Shown: piece by piece, positions 23,307 through 60,400 of the stretch
Position numbering within the stretch: the stretch's first letter is position 1
How the letters are laid out: the number at the start of each line of letters is the position of its first letter
DNA from: Rickettsiales bacterium
Lineage (GTDB): Bacteria > Pseudomonadota > Alphaproteobacteria > Rickettsiales > JABIRX01
Length of the DNA stretch: 64,000 nt
Direction of reading: 5' to 3'
Assembly (NCBI GenBank): GCA_965222515.1
Contig: CBDCUE010000021.1
Span: 85,871-149,870 of the forward strand
Position numbers and translations under genes: made by a program
Notes under the pieces: model-generated
Told to the model about the DNA's origin: nothing
The model's database searches: none
Seen by the model: only the letters and a program-made list of their open reading frames with translations

Positions 23307-23369
23307 AAGATAAATTTTGTGTCAATATATTGGAATATTATAGATCTAGTCTATAAACCAATATATTAG

Positions 23370-24873
<1,504 letters not shown>

Positions 24874-24956: not shown

Positions 24957-25192
24957 ATTATCAAAATTATTTATTTGAAACAATTTTATTTAATTAATTG
25001 TAATTAAAAAACATTATTTATATTTACTTATATCAAAGAACTTTCCTTGTAATTTTAACAATAGTTGCAACAAGGAGAGCTATTTATAACTAGGCTATAA
25101 CTAATAGTCAAACTTTTTTTATAAAATCATTGTTTTTTTATCAGGGATGTTTGATGCAGGTTGATTGATGTGATAAAAAACCCTAAAAATAA

Positions 25193-25220
25193 GGGAATTA
25201 TATACATAAATCCACAAAAT
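25193..25220. repeat. left 28-bp inverted repeat of the methyltransferase-HNH cassette
   Basis: gggaattatatacataaatccacaaaat is the exact reverse complement of 26727-26754. Confidence 0.9.
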
Positions 25221-25337
25221 AATATAGCTGATTAATAATATTAAATTATTGAATAAAAATTATAGAATGGTAATATTAAAAATATTGATTTGTAGTATGA
25301 TTAATAAAAGACTAACTTATAAGAAATTAATAGCATA

Positions 25338-26564
25338 GTGAAAAACACATTATATACAGGAGATAATCTATACATATTAAATGGAATGAATAGTGAGTCT
25401 GTTGATTTGATTTATTTAGACCCTCCTTTTAATTCAAAGAGATTTTATTCTGCTCCAGTCGGAACTAAAGCAGCAGGGACTAGTTTTAAAGATATGTGGA
25501 CTTGGCAAGATATAGATGAAGGATATTTAGAAAAAATGATTGTTAATTACCCTTTTATGACTAGTTATATTCAAGCAATAGAGGGTATAAGTGGTAAAGC
25601 TATGATGTCTTATGTAATATATATGACTCAAAGAATAATAGAATTACATAGAATATTAAAAGAAACGGGAAGTTTTTATTTACATTGTGATTCTACAGCT
25701 AGTCATTATTTAAAAATAATTTTAGATAGAATATTCGGTAAGGATAATTTTGTTAATAATATTAATTGGTGTTATAATACACAAGGAAAGCCAAAAAAAG
25801 GATTTGCTAAAAAACATGATGATATTTTATTTTATGTTAAAAACAAAAAATTATTTATATTTAATAAGATAACTATAGCACCAAATGACATTGCAAGATA
25901 TAACAAAACAGAAAAAGATACAGGTAAAAAATATCAAATAGATGGTAAGGGGTATAAGTATTATTTAGACAAGGGAAGATATTGTCCTGATTATTGGGAT
26001 ATACCAGCTTTAACTAGCAATAGCAAAGAAAGAACAGGATACCCAACTCAAAAACCATTGTCATTATTACATAGAATTATAAAAGCAAGTAGTAATGAAA
26101 GGGACGTTGTATTAGACCCTTTTTGTGGTTGTGCAACAACTTGTGTTGCTTCACAGCAATTAAATAGACAATGGATAGGGATTGATATTGAAAAAAAAGC
26201 AACAGAAATTTTAATTGATAGATTAAGCGATGATGCTGGTTTATTTAGTGATTTTATCCATAGAACAGATATACCAGAAAGAACTGATATAAAAAAAGAA
26301 GCTATAACCAAAACAATAAAAGAAAAGCTATTTAAAGAGCAAAAAGGAGTATGTAATGGTTGTAATGTTACAATTGATCTATGGCATTTTGAGGTTGACC
26401 ATATTATACCAAAATCAAAAGGAGGGGGAGATTATTATAATAATTATCAATTATTATGTGGTAATTGTAATAGAACAAAAGGTAATAGACCTATGGAGTA
26501 TCTTAATATGAAAATCAAAGCAAGAGATGAACTTATGAAAAACAAAATAACATTTGGAGGTTAA
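25338..26564 (+). CDS. beta-class (N6A/N4C) DNA methyltransferase fused to a C-terminal HNH endonuclease domain
   Basis: Motif IV IYLDPPFN lies N-terminal and motif I VLDPFCGCATT downstream, which is the beta-class order. The C-terminus has CNGCN...EVDHIIPKSKGG...NYQLLCGNCNRTKGN (CxxC...H-N...CxxC HNH zinc-finger nuclease). GTG start. Confidence 0.85.
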   Translation: MKNTLYTGDNLYILNGMNSESVDLIYLDPPFNSKRFYSAPVGTKAAGTSFKDMWTWQDIDEGYLEKMIVNYPFMTSYIQAIEGISGKAMMSYVIYMTQRIIELHRILKETGSFYLHCDSTASHYLKIILDRIFGKDNFVNNINWCYNTQGKPKKGFAKKHDDILFYVKNKKLFIFNKITIAPNDIARYNKTEKDTGKKYQIDGKGYKYYLDKGRYCPDYWDIPALTSNSKERTGYPTQKPLSLLHRIIKASSNERDVVLDPFCGCATTCVASQQLNRQWIGIDIEKKATEILIDRLSDDAGLFSDFIHRTDIPERTDIKKEAITKTIKEKLFKEQKGVCNGCNVTIDLWHFEVDHIIPKSKGGGDYYNNYQLLCGNCNRTKGNRPMEYLNMKIKARDELMKNKITFGG

Positions 26565-26571
26565 TAAACTG

Positions 26572-26724
26572 ATGTTAAACAAACCTATAAAAGAAAAAGA
26601 TTTAAAAAAATGTATTAATGATGTATTCTTTAATAAAAAGAATACAGATAATAAGGTTGATTATATAAATAAAAAACCTACTCAAAAAGAATTAAATACT
26701 AAGTTTAAAATTAAGGGGAAATAA
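26572..26724 (+). CDS. hypothetical 50-aa Lys-rich ORF inside the cassette
   Basis: ATG 8 nt after the methyltransferase stop: MLNKPIKEKDLKKCINDVFFNKKNTDNKVDYINKKPTQKELNTKFKIKGK. It ends 2 nt before the right inverted repeat. Too short for the track and may be non-coding. Confidence 0.25.
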   Translation: MLNKPIKEKDLKKCINDVFFNKKNTDNKVDYINKKPTQKELNTKFKIKGK

Positions 26725-26726
26725 TA

Positions 26727-26754
26727 ATTTTGTGGATTTATGTATATAATTCCC
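26727..26754. repeat. right 28-bp inverted repeat of the methyltransferase-HNH cassette
   Basis: attttgtggatttatgtatataattccc is the exact reverse complement of 25193-25220. Confidence 0.9.
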
Positions 26755-26780
26755 AAAAATAATTACTACCCCACAAACAG

Positions 26781-26880
26781 CAACAATTCTAATTATGGAA
26801 AAAGAGGTAGCCGTTTTTCTTGTTATGACACAGTCTGCAAGGGGGGAGCAGTTGCTCCGAGCTTTTCTTTGAATTTACTA
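26781..26880. repeat. composite dispersed repeat, copy C (contains the GGGGGGAGCAGTTGCTCC core)
   Basis: caacaattctaattatggaa is the reverse complement (19/20) of 23125-23144. The core ggggggagcagttgctccgagcttttctttgaattt recurs at 49615-49660 (inverted), 55100-55135 (inverted) and 38021-38060. Confidence 0.7.
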
Positions 26881-26904
26881 AAACTCGCTATAGCCCTATT
26901 ATAA

Positions 26905-57482: not shown

Positions 57483-60400
57483 ATGTTTTTCAATAATTAT
57501 GGTACAAATTTTGCCGAATATATTAATTCATCTAACAAAAATAACTCAACTACCGAGATTGCTTTTTTTTCCGATAATGAAGATCATATAGAAGAGACTT
57601 TTGTCTCTTTTATCCAAGTTTTGGAAAAAGATATAGAACAAAGAATAGAAATATCAAGTTTAGTAGCAACAGAAGAACAACAACCTAGTATTTCTCAAAA
57701 ATACATAAATTCACTAGAACAGCAAAACACACAACAAGAACAGCTTGCATCTCAAAATAATGAAGTAATATTAAATCATCAAGATAAAATAATAGAAGTT
57801 ACAAATACACCAGAAACACTAAGCTTTAATACATTTAGTGTTACTCAAAAAACACTGGGAGAAATACAGGAGATACAAGGCATATCTGAGCAATTTAAAA
57901 AAGCACAAGAAAAGAATTTTGATATTATTAATATTGAAATAAAAGCTCCTGCTCAAAAAATTGCCATACCATTTAAATCTGAAACAGAAAAACTACAAGA
58001 AATACAAATAGAGCAAAAAAAACAAGAGAAAAAACTACAAACAGAGCAACAAGCAGAGCAAGAAGCAGAGCAAGAAGAACAAGAGCAACCAACAGATCAG
58101 CAAGCAGAAACAAACCATCAACCAGAAATAGTAAAACCAAATATTTATCTTAGTGTAGATGGAAAAAATGGAACTTTTGATATTGCAAATATTACAACAA
58201 ATTTTGCACATATTATTGATGGAATAACATTCTCTATTGAAGCTAATCAAGATAATTATCTTGAAGATAGCACTGAAAACTTAACAAATCTAAGTAACAA
58301 CTTTTTATATAACAAAGATAATGTTTCATATATTGATTACATCTCTAATATAGATAGCTATGTTTCATTTAATACAACTTTTTCTGCTGTTTCTGTTGTT
58401 TCTGGTTTGGTTGCTAATATCACAGAAGGGCAAACTACAGTTTCAAGCATAGTAAGCAATCTTACAAATGTTGGTTTTGTTGGAGATAGCGGAACAGGTA
58501 GTGCTAATTATGGAACTTATTCTGTGTCAGAAATTGGTTTTTGGATATATATTCCAGATATAATAAAATTTGATAGCTTAGCAGAAGGAGAGATGGTTCA
58601 AGACAGCTTCTCTGTCACTACTAGCGATGGAAAGACAGAAACCATAACTATTAATTTAATTGGAGTAAATGATCCAGCAATTATTACTGGGGATAATAGC
58701 GGTAGTTTAATAGAAGATGACTCAGTTACTACCTCTGTTTTTGGAAATTTATCCGTTAATGATGTTGATACAAATCAAAGTAGATTTAATGTTCTTACCG
58801 ATGAGACCTCTACTTATGGAACATTTTCTATTACAGAAGATGGAGCTTGGCAATATCAATTAGATAATAATAAATCACAATCTTTAAATGTATCAGGTAT
58901 TACGACAGAAGAGATTAAGGTAACTTCTGTTGATGGCACAGAACATTTAATTACTATTTTTTTATCTGGTGTCAATGATGTTGCAACTATCACTGGCTTT
59001 AATGATAAAACTATTAGTTTAAATGATAATATAATAAAAATTGCTAATGATGTTGTTATAGAAGATGTTGATGATGCTAATTTGAATAATGTTACTATTC
59101 AAATCACTAATTATAATAATACAGAAGATTTATTCTATTTTGAAGATCAAGTAATAACATTAACAAATAATGAAACTAGTTTAGAAAACACAGGATTTAA
59201 CTATATAGCCACAGAAGACTCATCCACTCAATTAACCATAACGATAACAGGAGATAAAACAATAGCAGAATATCAATCATTAGTAAGTAGCTTTTCTTAT
59301 AATAAGAGTAATACAACAAATCCAGACACAACTACTAAAAACATTACAATAACTGTTGATCAAGGGATTGCTAATGAAGCTCAAATTGTAGCAAATCTAA
59401 TTATTACAGCTTTAACAACAAGTGAAAATACGACAAGCAATCCAGCTGATGATACCACAACTTTATTTACTGCTCAAGAGCCAGAAATAGATTCAATCAG
59501 TAAAACATATGAAATCACCTCTGTAATGGATAAACAAGAAAATGATGTAGTAGGATTATTTGAAATAGATGCTAACACTGGAGAAGTAAGTCTAGTTACA
59601 GGACAAAATTTTGATTATGAAACTGCTCAAAGATATGATATAACTATCAATGTAAAAGATCAAAATGGCAATATATTACAAACACAAAATTATGTTTTTA
59701 ATATAACTGATTTAGATGATGGAAACTTTGCATTTATTGAAACAAATTATCTTGAAAGTAATAGTGCTAACATAATCTCTGCTTATAATTTTGAAAATTC
59801 TGTTACTGGAGGGATAAGTAATAATTTAGTGGATGATATAGCTCACAAAAGTTCTGATGTTAACGAAAAAGATGGGACAATTGGAACAGGAGCAAATTCT
59901 GGAGTAACTGCAACAGATAATTCAAAAGGAAATTTTTTGTCATTAGATGGCACAAATACTGCAAACTTATCTTTAGGAAATATTACTTTAAGCAATGAAT
60001 TTTCTTTATCAGGTTGGTTTAAGTTTAATCAAGATGACACTAACTCTAATGAATATTTATTTTCTGCAACAACTGAAAATGGAGGGAGTTTTTCTATATA
60101 TAGAACAGCTAATGATCATAGTATTATATTTTTATATAGAGAAAGCCATTCTAACAATGCTACTGATGATTATATAATCATTAATAATATAATAGACACA
60201 AGTGCAACAACAAATGAATTTGATCATTACAGCTTTACTATGAAAAGCATTATTAAAGATGATAGAGATGCAATCAATGTATCAGCCTATGTAAATGGTA
60301 TATTAAACATGTCAGAAATAGTATTTTCAGCTGGAGGAAATTTAACTTTAGCAGGTGATTATAGCAATGCAGAAATTGGTAATGTCCTTGATGGCGGAGT

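What the first reader, a model, noticed from the sequence alone, without database searches (positions are those of the whole stretch)
25193..26754. Methyltransferase-HNH fusion gene packaged between perfect 28-bp inverted repeats next to the 16S gene
gggaattatatacataaatccacaaaat (25193-25220) is exactly reverse-complementary to 26727-26754, and the match stops abruptly at both ends. The 1,562-bp unit so defined carries one 408-aa protein. It joins a beta-class amino-methyltransferase (DPPF motif IV before FCGCATT motif I) to a C-terminal HNH zinc-finger nuclease (CNGCN...EVDHIIPKSKGG...NYQLLCGNCNRTKGN). A possible 50-codon Lys-rich ORF ends 2 nt before the right repeat. There is no transposase, integrase or separate restriction gene. 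A single polypeptide with both methylase and nuclease modules, inside perfectly conserved terminal inverted repeats, could be one of three things. It could be a self-contained single-chain restriction-modification or nicking system. It could be a homing-type selfish cassette that uses the HNH domain for mobility. Or it could be a non-autonomous element mobilised in trans. The perfection of the repeats in a genome that is otherwise decaying argues for recent activity. It lies about 320 bp upstream of the 16S 5' end, i.e. in or near the rRNA promoter region.
Basis: partly seen in the sequence, partly recalled or inferred. Interest (0 to 1): 0.75.

Follow-up and report, generated by a model that had tools for sequence, protein, structure and literature searches.

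The report
Transposase-less IS1595 cassette carrying methylase-nuclease
The two perfect inverted repeats are the ends of an IS1595-type transposon that has lost its transposase but keeps an intact DNA-methylase/HNH-nuclease fusion gene, so this is a recognisable mobile-element remnant and not a new self-mobilising system.

Summary
A perfect 28-bp inverted repeat (25193-25220 / 26727-26754) brackets one intact 408-aa N6_N4 methyltransferase-HNH gene and a 50-codon ORF.

The fusion protein is not rare: at least 8000 full-length relatives exist across many phyla. In 20 of the 80 best genome loci, the fusion gene sits within about 1 kb of an IS1595-family DDE transposase. In 11 of those loci, transposase plus fusion gene are bracketed by terminal repeats of the same type (GGGRATTAY...) and perfect 8-bp duplications. 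The element in a Candidatus Oxydemutator genome matches the window's repeat at 24 of 26 bases.

The window unit is therefore a transposase-less derivative of a passenger-carrying IS1595 element, of the "mobile insertion cassette" kind. It inserted about 80 bp upstream of a likely 16S promoter. Homing by the HNH domain is not supported.

The protein has intact methylase and nuclease motifs and a modular, swappable recognition domain. This suggests a single-chain restriction-modification-like role, but no activity was tested. It is a new member of a known kind, of moderate interest.

The parts
25185..25192 (.). Left copy of the 8-bp target-site duplication AAAAATAA
   Evidence: It is identical to 26755-26762 and flush with the repeat ends. 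Eleven related transposase-bearing elements have perfect 8-bp duplications in the same position.
25193..25220 (+). Left terminal inverted repeat, IS1595-family type (GGGAATTATATACATAAATCCACAAAAT)
   Evidence: It is a perfect inverted copy of 26727-26754. It matches the L004 element end at 24 of 26 bases. It fits the GGGRATTAY consensus of 13 related loci, with G1, G3, T6, T7 and A8 invariant.
25338..26564 (+). Passenger gene: 408-aa beta-class N6-adenine-type DNA methyltransferase fused to a C-terminal HNH nuclease (GTG start)
   Evidence: Pfam gives PF01555 at 1.5e-47 and PF01844 at 1.3e-11. The N-terminus MKNTLYTGDNLYIL matches relatives. All catalytic and zinc residues are invariant. The AF2 model (pLDDT 76) is closest to M.BceJIV, M.RsrI, CcrM and the EcoP15I Mod subunit.
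25785..26003 (+). Target-recognition domain of the methyltransferase (about aa 150-222), the modular and variable part
   Evidence: Identity to the window protein is bimodal in this segment: 77-85% in 5 relatives and 25-47% in 30. The flanking core is 63-81% identical in all 35.
26352..26489 (+). HNH nuclease domain (aa 339-384): CNGC...DH...N...CGNCN
   Evidence: Pfam HNH, HNH_5 and HNH_4 hits. NCBIfam similarity to the Cas9d, IscB and Cas9 HNH domains. PDB sequence matches to Cas9 HNH, a group II intron maturase and McrA. Invariant columns in alignment A1.
26572..26724 (+). Conserved small ORF (50 aa, Lys-rich) belonging to the element backbone; function unknown
   Evidence: Its C-terminal motif NKKPTQKELNTKFKI matches small ORFs in the same position next to the right end in L004 (NKKPTEEELHQKWKL), L086 (NKKPTKKEQNEKWRI) and L020 (HQPTRRELRQRWKL). 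It has no Pfam or NCBIfam match.
26727..26754 (-). Right terminal inverted repeat
   Evidence: It is the perfect reverse complement of 25193-25220.
26755..26762 (.). Right copy of the 8-bp target-site duplication AAAAATAA
25083..25111 (-). Putative 16S promoter (context, not part of the element): TTGACT-17 nt-TATAAA, preceded by an A-rich tract
   Evidence: Read directly from the sequence. The tool's scan missed it because it requires T at position 6 of the -10 hexamer. It lies 81 bp from the left repeat and about 205 nt upstream of the mature 16S 5' end. Its function is inferred.
23369..24872 (-). 16S rRNA gene (context)
   Evidence: Rfam RF00177, 1545.6 bits, full length.

Best explanation
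The 1,562-bp unit (25193-26754), together with its flanking 8-bp duplication, is a transposase-less derivative of a passenger-carrying insertion sequence of the IS1595 family. It is a "mobile insertion cassette"-type remnant.

**Insertion (shown by anatomy and relatives).** An IS1595-type DDE transposase recognised the GGGAATTAT... ends and inserted the element into an A/T-rich site. Repair of the staggered 8-bp cut duplicated AAAAATAA. The insertion point is about 80 bp upstream of the -35 box of the likely 16S promoter.

**Complete form (shown in relatives).** It reads left end, transposase, methylase-HNH gene, small ORF, right end.

**Loss of the transposase (inferred).** I think the most likely route is an internal deletion after insertion, at roughly 55%. 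Less likely, at roughly 30%, is that it moved as an already transposase-less cassette using a transposase from elsewhere. Either way the unit cannot move on its own now.

**Cargo (inferred from sequence only).** The cargo is an intact single polypeptide. Its beta-class methyltransferase, probably N6-adenine because of the DPPF motif, uses a central and readily exchanged recognition domain. A tethered Cas9/IscB-like HNH domain is positioned to nick or cut near the same site when it is unmethylated. This would be a compact restriction-modification-like module. It could pay for the transposon's carriage by defence, or stabilise it by addiction.
For: **Anatomy of the window element**
- Perfect 28-bp ends and a flush perfect 8-bp duplication.

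**Link to IS1595 transposons in relatives**
- Among the 80 best genome loci encoding relatives of the fusion, 20 have an IS1595-like transposase within about 1 kb. The transposases tested have PF12762 plus the PF12760 zinc ribbon.
- It is the only recurrent neighbour.
- In 11 loci (L004, L014, L020, L030, L043, L049, L065, L066, L079, L081, L082), transposase plus fusion gene are enclosed by terminal repeats and perfect 8-bp duplications. A further example, L089, has the terminal repeats enclosing both genes; its duplication was not checked.
- Nine of these eleven, plus four more loci, share the end consensus GGGRATTAY with the window. The L004 end is identical at 24 of 26 bases.
- The small ORF next to the right end is conserved in L004, L020 and L086, so the window keeps the backbone architecture minus the transposase.

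**Published precedent**
- IS1595-family elements make A/T-rich 8-bp duplications (PMC12561309).
- Passenger-carrying ISs and transposase-less MIC/MITE derivatives are established categories (PMC3129680, PMC7986276).
- R-M genes flanked by inverted repeats plus 8-bp duplications, without a transposase, have been described (PMC2853133).
- MITE-like derivatives with the same end type exist in L084.

**Cargo**
- Catalytic motifs are intact and invariant.
- The fold matches beta-class N6-adenine methyltransferases.
- The recognition domain is modular while the core is uniform.
- No separate restriction partner is conserved.
Against: - No empty site could be examined. The host is an isolated alphaproteobacterial lineage: its nearest PriA is 53% identical and shows no synteny.
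- The rest of the source genome could not be searched, so a cognate transposase or further copies cannot be excluded or shown.
- No other transposase-less copy with both ends was found among about 165 related loci, so the cassette form is so far a single case.
- The protein's closest relatives (69-77% identity, same recognition domain) are solitary genes without transposon ends. One is wedged between ilvC and rnd with no room for ends. The gene therefore also spreads or persists outside IS1595 elements.
- Transposase and fusion-protein divergences are only weakly correlated (Mantel rho 0.24, 261/2000 permutations), so the partnership is not a single stable lineage.
- Assignment to the ISNwi1 subgroup rests on my memory of ISfinder's end consensus, not on a database test.
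- No enzymatic activity, methylation motif or cleavage was tested.
Confidence: 0.8

Rival explanations
1. Live non-autonomous cassette. The unit never lost a transposase in place. It transposed recently as a transposase-less cassette, using a cognate IS1595 transposase encoded elsewhere in the same genome, and could do so again.
For: - The ends and the duplication are perfect.
- MITE-like derivatives of the same end type exist in another genome, L084, so trans-mobilisation of such ends is plausible.
- MICs are an established category (PMC3129680).
Against: - There is no IS1595 transposase in the 64-kb window.
- The exact protein is on record on only one contig, which argues against multiple fresh copies.
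- No second cassette of this form appears among about 165 related loci.
- Perfect ends are also the norm in single-copy complete elements.
Confidence: 0.25
2. Self-mobilising homing cassette. The HNH domain cuts a target site, the gene copies itself in by recombination, and the methylase protects the occupied allele. The inverted repeats are incidental.
For: - Several close relatives are solitary genes squeezed between housekeeping genes without transposon ends.
- The family is spread across many phyla at 56-77% identity.
- The HNH type is the one used by homing enzymes and group II intron maturases.
Against: - Homing does not create terminal inverted repeats or an 8-bp target duplication.
- Insertion sites of the 12 elements are unrelated A/T-rich octamers, not one conserved target.
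- A dedicated DDE transposase sits inside the same ends in relatives.
Confidence: 0.04
3. Vertically inherited host gene. This would be an orphan or single-chain R-M methylase whose flanking inverted repeat is a chance or regulatory feature, not a mobile-element boundary.
For: - The element's GC (25.7%) and GC3 (14.7%) are indistinguishable from host genes.
- The gene is intact.
Against: - The repeat has 0 chance matches in shuffles.
- It is homologous to the transposon ends of 13 other loci from unrelated phyla.
- A flush 8-bp duplication is present.
- The nearest relative of the host lacks the locus arrangement.
Confidence: 0.03

Closest known systems
IS1595-family insertion sequences with passenger genes (tIS); Siguier, Gagnevin and Chandler 2009, cited in PMC3129680, PMC4611040 and PMC7986276. 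From my memory of ISfinder, the ISNwi1 subgroup has ends 'ggnnatTAT' and 8-bp duplications.
   Same: The terminal repeats begin GGGAATTAT and there is an 8-bp A/T-rich target duplication. Complete relatives carry a PF12762/PF12760 transposase plus passenger genes inside the same ends (8-bp duplications for the family in PMC12561309).
   Different: The window copy has no transposase, so it is not an autonomous IS. The specific passenger (methylase-HNH plus a small ORF) was not found described in the searchable literature.
Mobile insertion cassettes (MICs, e.g. MIC231 of Bacillus cereus; De Palmenaer et al. 2004, cited in PMC3129680)
   Same: IS-type inverted repeats flank passenger ORFs with no transposase.
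   Different: The IS family differs (IS1595, not IS231/IS4). Trans-mobilisation and multiple copies, which were shown for MIC231, are not shown here.
Transposon-like restriction-modification units flanked by inverted repeats and 8-bp direct repeats (Furuta, Abe and Kobayashi 2010, PMC2853133; Xanthomonas oryzae and Neisseria gonorrhoeae examples)
   Same: R-M-type genes sit inside inverted repeats of 26-65 bp with an 8-bp target duplication and no transposase inside. One example is a single-chain Type IIG gene. The authors raised the same question of self- versus trans-mobilisation.
   Different: In the present case the responsible transposase family can be named from complete relatives. The cargo is a beta-class methylase-HNH fusion, not a classical Type II or IIG system.
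Single-chain Type IIC/IIG restriction-modification enzymes (MmeI-like; own knowledge)
   Same: One polypeptide combines nuclease, methyltransferase and a swappable recognition domain. Allelic diversity in the recognition domain is seen here as well (Type IIG TRD diversity noted in PMC2853133).
   Different: Those enzymes have an N-terminal PD-(D/E)xK nuclease and a gamma-class methylase. This protein has a beta-class methylase with a C-terminal HNH. Cleavage has not been demonstrated, so this is a "works like" comparison, not membership.
Beta-class N6-adenine methyltransferases M.BceJIV, M.RsrI, CcrM and M.MboIIA, and Type III Mod subunits (EcoP15I)
   Same: These are the best sequence and fold matches to residues 1-300. 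They share the motif order IV-TRD-I.
   Different: None of them carries an HNH domain, and no solved structure covers both domains. No Res partner is present.
Transposon-encoded accessory nucleases TnpB/IscB of IS200/IS605 and IS607 (own knowledge)
   Same: A non-transposase nuclease rides inside an IS. The HNH domain here scores against the IscB and Cas9 HNH models.
   Different: There is no RuvC domain or guide RNA. Targeting would come from a protein recognition domain coupled to methylation. A role in transposon retention is pure speculation.

Membership tests
IS1595-family transposable element (autonomous IS) | Encodes a DDE transposase with the ISXO2-like catalytic domain (PF12762) and an N-terminal zinc ribbon (PF12760) | tested here: not met
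   No such ORF exists in the unit or anywhere in the 64-kb window (tblastn; ORFs). It is present in complete relatives L004, L014, L020, L032, L043 and L089.
IS1595-family transposable element (autonomous IS) | Terminal inverted repeats with family-typical termini | tested here: met
   The window ends align with those of 13 transposase-associated loci. The consensus is GGGRATTAY, and the match to L004 is 24/26. Agreement with ISfinder's ISNwi1 consensus comes from memory and was not tested.
IS1595-family transposable element (autonomous IS) | 8-bp target-site duplication, often A/T-rich | tested here: met
   AAAAATAA lies on both sides. Eleven relatives have perfect 8-bp duplications. The literature reports the same for ISApl4 (PMC12561309).
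Mobile insertion cassette (MIC) | IS-type inverted repeats enclosing passenger ORFs and no transposase | tested here: met
Mobile insertion cassette (MIC) | Mobilisable in trans by a cognate transposase; further copies or empty sites in the genome or population | not testable with these tools
   The source genome is absent from the searchable collections. No close relative is available for an empty site.
Beta-class N6/N4 amino DNA methyltransferase | Motif IV (D/S)PP(Y/F) N-terminal to the AdoMet motif I, with the TRD between; PF01555 | tested here: met
   DPPF at aa 28-31 and FCGCATT at aa 262-268. PF01555 scores 1.5e-47. The residues are invariant. The fold matches M.BceJIV, M.RsrI and CcrM. 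Whether the base modified is adenine or cytosine is inferred from DPPF only.
HNH (beta-beta-alpha-metal) nuclease | Two CxxC zinc ligand pairs, a catalytic His (in the DH dipeptide), and structural and metal-binding Asn residues | tested here: met
   C339/C342, D354-H355, N369 and C374/C377-N378 are all invariant in 36 sequences. PF01844 scores 1.3e-11. Nuclease activity cannot be tested here.
Single-chain Type IIC/IIG restriction-modification enzyme | Nuclease and methyltransferase in one polypeptide sharing one recognition domain | tested here: met
   The domain architecture is shown, the single modular TRD, and the lack of a separate R gene among neighbours.
Single-chain Type IIC/IIG restriction-modification enzyme | Demonstrated sequence-specific cleavage blocked by the enzyme's own methylation | not testable with these tools
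   This needs biochemistry or methylome data. No characterised homologue was found in the literature searches.
Single-chain Type IIC/IIG restriction-modification enzyme | MmeI-like build: N-terminal PD-(D/E)xK nuclease plus a gamma-class methylase | tested here: not met
   This protein has a beta-class methylase and a C-terminal HNH. It is not a member of the MmeI-like lineage.
Free-standing HNH homing endonuclease gene | Inserted at a specific conserved target, without terminal repeats or target duplication | tested here: not met
   Terminal repeats and an 8-bp duplication are present. The insertion sites of related elements are unrelated octamers.
Type III restriction-modification system | Mod subunit partnered with a Res helicase-nuclease gene | tested here: not met
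   The protein is structurally similar to EcoP15I Mod, but no Res-like neighbour exists in the window or in 80 related loci.

The most novel reading that the evidence does not exclude
The methylase-HNH fusion may be a transposon-serving nuclease and not just cargo. In this reading it is a protein-guided counterpart of TnpB/IscB.

- Its swappable recognition domain would mark the host chromosome by methylation.
- Its Cas9/IscB-like HNH domain would cut unmethylated copies: incoming DNA, or cells and sister chromosomes that have lost the element.
- This would enforce retention and spread of IS1595 elements.

It would explain why this one fusion is repeatedly found inside IS1595 ends of several subtypes in symbiont genomes. 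The window copy would then be a case where the addiction or defence module outlived its transposase.
Probability: 0.12. Interest if true: 0.75.

Novelty: new member of a known kind. Interest (0 to 1): 0.4.

Why it matters
**For this genome.** The finding turns an apparent oddity into an annotatable feature: an IS1595-derived cassette with a target duplication, sitting just upstream of the 16S promoter. It also flags a probably active DNA methylase-nuclease in a reduced, Rickettsiales-like genome.

**More generally.**
- It gives a concrete answer, for one family, to a question left open by Furuta et al. (PMC2853133): who moves R-M genes that are flanked by inverted repeats and 8-bp duplications? 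Here the answer is an IS1595-type transposase that complete relatives still carry.
- It highlights a very large family of methylase-HNH fusions (at least 8000 members) for which I found no experimental characterisation. The family has modular recognition domains and is abundant in sponge and termite-gut symbionts. It is a candidate source of compact, programmable-by-domain-swap methylase/nickase enzymes.

Tried and rejected
- **Other copies of the repeat.** The outer 22-mer gave no exact hit in 185,579 species-representative genomes, so the source genome is not in that collection. A degenerate 26-mer gave one hit in JGI metagenomes (L086): a solo end with the small ORF but different cargo.
- **Fetching the source contig.** Look-ups by exact protein failed for P0001 and P0122.
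- **Empty-site or synteny test via PriA.** The nearest homologue is 53% identical and has a different neighbourhood. The test is not feasible.
- **A remnant of the transposase gene in the 117-bp left spacer or elsewhere in the window.** tblastn at E<=10 found nothing. Alignment of the spacer to L004 was uninformative.
- **Co-phylogeny of transposase and fusion protein in 15 loci.** The correlation is weak (rho 0.24; 261/2000 permutations reach it). This is inconclusive on single versus repeated capture.
- **A conserved restriction partner.** None is found among neighbours. The SIR2-like gene beside P0004 is a one-off.
- **Plasmid and phage collections.** Only methylase-only relatives appear, with at most 76% coverage. 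In IMG/VR only about 4 of 80 loci have the HNH part, and one of those (L089) is again an IS1595 element.
- **Family assignment of the small ORF.** No credible Pfam or NCBIfam hit.
- **RNA genes in and around the unit.** There are no Rfam matches at E<=1. The GC-richer stretch 26763-26880 does not fold better than shuffles.
- **Literature.** No paper was found describing this fusion or its link to IS1595. The FEMS and ISfinder reviews were not held.
Full report

Yes. The 28-mer GGGAATTATATACATAAATCCACAAAAT at 25193-25220 is exactly reverse-complementary to 26727-26754. Allowing three mismatches, these are the only two copies in the 64-kb window, and none occurred in 100 dinucleotide-preserving shuffles.

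Between the arms lies one long ORF, 25338-26564 on the plus strand, 408 aa with a GTG start. It scores for PF01555 N6_N4_Mtase (1.5e-47) and PF01844 HNH (1.3e-11). A 50-codon Lys-rich ORF (26572-26724) ends 2 nt before the right arm.

The 16S rRNA gene lies on the minus strand at 23369-24872, so its 5' end is 320 bp from the left arm. The neighbours on the other side are a redoxin, a VTT/DedA membrane protein and PriA.

The octamer AAAAATAA sits flush outside both arms, at 25185-25192 and 26755-26762. At this base composition, my arithmetic puts the chance of such a flush 8-bp identity at roughly 1e-4.

**2. The protein is a member of a very large family.**

The best 120 are all full-length methylase-HNH fusions, 56-77% identical, from Gammaproteobacteria, Bacteroidia, Planctomycetes, Ignavibacteria and others.

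In an alignment of 36 members, the key residues are all invariant:
- the DPPF motif;
- the AdoMet motif;
- both CxxC pairs;
- D354-H355, N369 and N378.

The HNH domain is therefore not degenerate.

Conservation is strikingly modular. The N-terminal and C-terminal parts are 63-81% identical to the window protein in all 35 relatives. The central recognition domain is either 77-85% identical (five sequences) or 25-47% (thirty). The relatives with the most similar cores have unrelated recognition domains.

An AlphaFold model (pLDDT 76) matches beta-class N6-adenine methyltransferases (M.BceJIV, M.RsrI, CcrM, MboIIA) and Type III Mod subunits. No solved structure covers both domains. The HNH part scores against the Cas9d, IscB and Cas9 HNH models.

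**3. What the repeats are.**

I fetched 80 loci encoding relatives from one-genome-per-species bacterial assemblies. Many come from sponge symbionts (Poribacteria, Poriferihabitaceae, Dehalococcoidia) and termite-gut symbionts.

In 20 of the 80, an IS1595-like transposase lies within about 1 kb of the fusion gene. The seven transposases scanned with Pfam all have the PF12762 domain, and six also have the PF12760 zinc ribbon. Clustering all neighbouring ORFs showed that this transposase is the only recurrent neighbour.

In 11 loci, transposase plus fusion gene are enclosed by terminal inverted repeats and perfect 8-bp direct repeats. The duplications are TTTCTGAT, GAACTTTT, AAATCTTT, TCTGTTTT, ATATAAAG, ATTGCTTA, TATCGTTG, CAAATGAA, CAAAATTA, AAAAATTT and AAAAATAT. 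A twelfth example, L089 in a viral-contig collection, has terminal repeats of the same type enclosing transposase and fusion gene; its flanking duplication was not checked.

The ends of most of these elements begin GGGRATTAY. The window's ends fit this consensus. The element in a Candidatus Oxydemutator genome (L004) has the end GGGAATTATATACTTAAATCTACAAA, identical to the window at 24 of 26 positions. Its layout is left end, transposase, methylase-HNH, small ORF, right end.

The small ORF is conserved at the protein level next to the right end:
- window: NKKPTQKELNTKFKI;
- L004: NKKPTEEELHQKWKL;
- L086: NKKPTKKEQNEKWRI;
- L020: HQPTRRELRQRWKL.

The window unit therefore has the backbone of such an element with the transposase missing. 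tblastn finds no trace of a transposase anywhere in the window.

**4. How this fits established knowledge.**

- IS1595-family elements generate A/T-rich 8-bp duplications (ISApl4, PMC12561309, which cites Siguier et al. 2009 for 7-9 bp in the IS1016 group).
- ISs that carry passenger genes (tIS) were first defined for this family. Transposase-less derivatives with passenger genes (MICs) or without (MITEs) are standard categories (PMC3129680, PMC4611040, PMC7986276).
- Furuta et al. described R-M genes flanked by inverted repeats of 26-65 bp and 8-bp duplications with no transposase. They left open whether such units are self-mobilising or moved in trans (PMC2853133).
- From memory, the ISNwi1 subgroup in ISfinder has ends 'ggnnatTAT', 8-bp duplications and members with passenger genes. 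The match is exact, but I could not test it against the database.

**5. Most likely history and mechanism.**

A complete element, or a cassette using a transposase in trans, inserted by DDE transposition into AAAAATAA. A good promoter candidate for 16S lies at 25111->25083 on the minus strand: TTGACT, 17 nt, TATAAA, preceded by an A-rich tract. The simple scan missed it because of its rule for the -10 hexamer. The insertion point is 81 bp upstream of that -35 box, so the core promoter is intact and the fusion gene is transcribed divergently.

I favour loss of the transposase by deletion in place, for four reasons:
- the exact protein is on record on one contig only;
- no transposase is nearby;
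- no other two-ended transposase-less copy turned up among about 165 related loci;
- small genomes tend to lose DNA (general knowledge).

A live cassette served by a transposase elsewhere in the genome cannot be excluded. MITE-like derivatives of the same end type exist in L084.

Composition gives no sign of recent arrival from a GC-richer donor. The element has 25.7% GC against 27% for the window, and its GC3 of 14.7% lies within the host range.

**6. What the cargo probably does.**

This part is inference. A beta-class, probably adenine-specific, methyltransferase carries a tethered HNH domain and has no separate restriction partner. It has the logic of a single-chain restriction-modification enzyme. 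The recognition domain would direct both protection and cutting.

The cassette-like exchange of recognition domains is the pattern seen in Type I S subunits, Type III Mod and Type IIG enzymes, where specificity is under diversifying selection (Type IIG example in PMC2853133). For a transposon, such a module could act as a benefit to the host (defence) or as an addiction device.

It is not a member of the MmeI-like Type IIG lineage, because both the nuclease type and the methylase class differ. No activity has been shown for any member that I could find.

**7. What does not fit neatly.**

The protein's closest relatives (69-77% identity, same recognition domain) are solitary genes without transposon ends. 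Where DNA was available, no ends were found, and one gene sits between ilvC and rnd with no spare sequence. The gene therefore also persists, and perhaps spreads, outside IS1595 elements.

Transposase and fusion-protein divergence correlate only weakly. At least two other end types occur, in L014 and in L082/L017. This suggests repeated capture or shuffling, not one stable lineage.

**8. Verdict.**

The element is a new member of a known kind, an IS1595-derived transposase-less cassette with R-M-type cargo.

Interest is moderate. The broader pattern is worth a dedicated study: an uncharacterised family of at least 8000 methylase-HNH fusions with modular recognition domains, recurrently carried by IS1595 transposons in symbiont genomes. 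The window locus itself is an ordinary remnant of that system.

Noticed in passing
L086 11462-13427 (JGI metagenome contig Ga0056111_1000067): A solo end, GGGAATTATATACATAAATCTACAAA, lies directly after mnmG. Next to it is a 46-aa ORF homologous to the window's small ORF, but there is no methylase-HNH gene. Instead the region holds a NgoFVII C-terminal fragment, a MUG113/T5orf172 protein and a 197-aa ORF. The end-plus-small-ORF backbone seems to outlive or exchange its cargo.
   Followed up: partly
L084 3758-3950 and 7804-8005: Two copies of a MITE-like unit of about 200 bp carry the same GGGAATTATAT end type and a GC-rich palindromic core (CATTGCGAGCGAGTGCAACGAGCGTGGCAATC). One copy, half decayed, lies immediately upstream of a methylase-HNH gene that is 70% identical to the window's.
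   Followed up: partly
L032 3200-6984: An IS1595 element with methylase-HNH cargo sits inside a Type I hsdS specificity gene. The flanking hsdS fragments are inverted duplicates of each other, which suggests an IS-mediated inversion in an R-M locus.
   Followed up: no
L001 6239-7489: The methylase-HNH gene of P0004 (72% identity) is followed by a 416-aa protein with weak SIR2-like matches (Pfam SIR2_2 3.5e-4; PADLOC SIR2 7e-5). It could be a defence partner, but it was seen only at this locus (the same arrangement in two contigs, L001 and L002).
   Followed up: partly
Loci L003-L082 (genome contigs): The fusion family is heavily represented in sponge-symbiont MAGs (Poribacteria, Poriferihabitaceae, Dehalococcoidia, Acidobacteriota) and in termite-gut protist symbionts. 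Some genomes carry two or more copies, for example OZ240210.1 with L032 and L039.
   Followed up: no
window 41437-45453: A 1338-aa ORF has 69-bp (23-aa) leucine-rich-repeat-like tandem repeats (arrays at 41691-42034 and 42853-43275). This is typical of host-interaction proteins of intracellular bacteria.
   Followed up: no
window about 58000-64000: A very long ORF with a repetitive, Asn/Thr-rich, adhesin-like sequence runs off the end of the window. The ORF tool therefore does not list it, and the region looks non-coding at first sight.
   Followed up: partly
window 23369-24872 and whole window: No 23S or 5S gene accompanies the 16S gene anywhere in the 64 kb. This split rRNA arrangement, together with PriA best hits to Rickettsiales and Holosporaceae MAGs at only 39-53% identity, points to an isolated Rickettsiales-like lineage.
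   Followed up: partly
L085 7001-9649: The PriA of the host's nearest relative (53% identity) is 882 aa long and carries an inserted DUF559 (Vsr-like endonuclease) domain that the window's PriA lacks.
   Followed up: no
window 26763-26904: A GC-richer stretch (about 32% GC) lies between the right target duplication and the redoxin gene. It has a terminator-like hairpin at 26845-26858 on the plus strand. It has no Rfam match and does not fold better than shuffles, so its meaning is unknown.
   Followed up: yes
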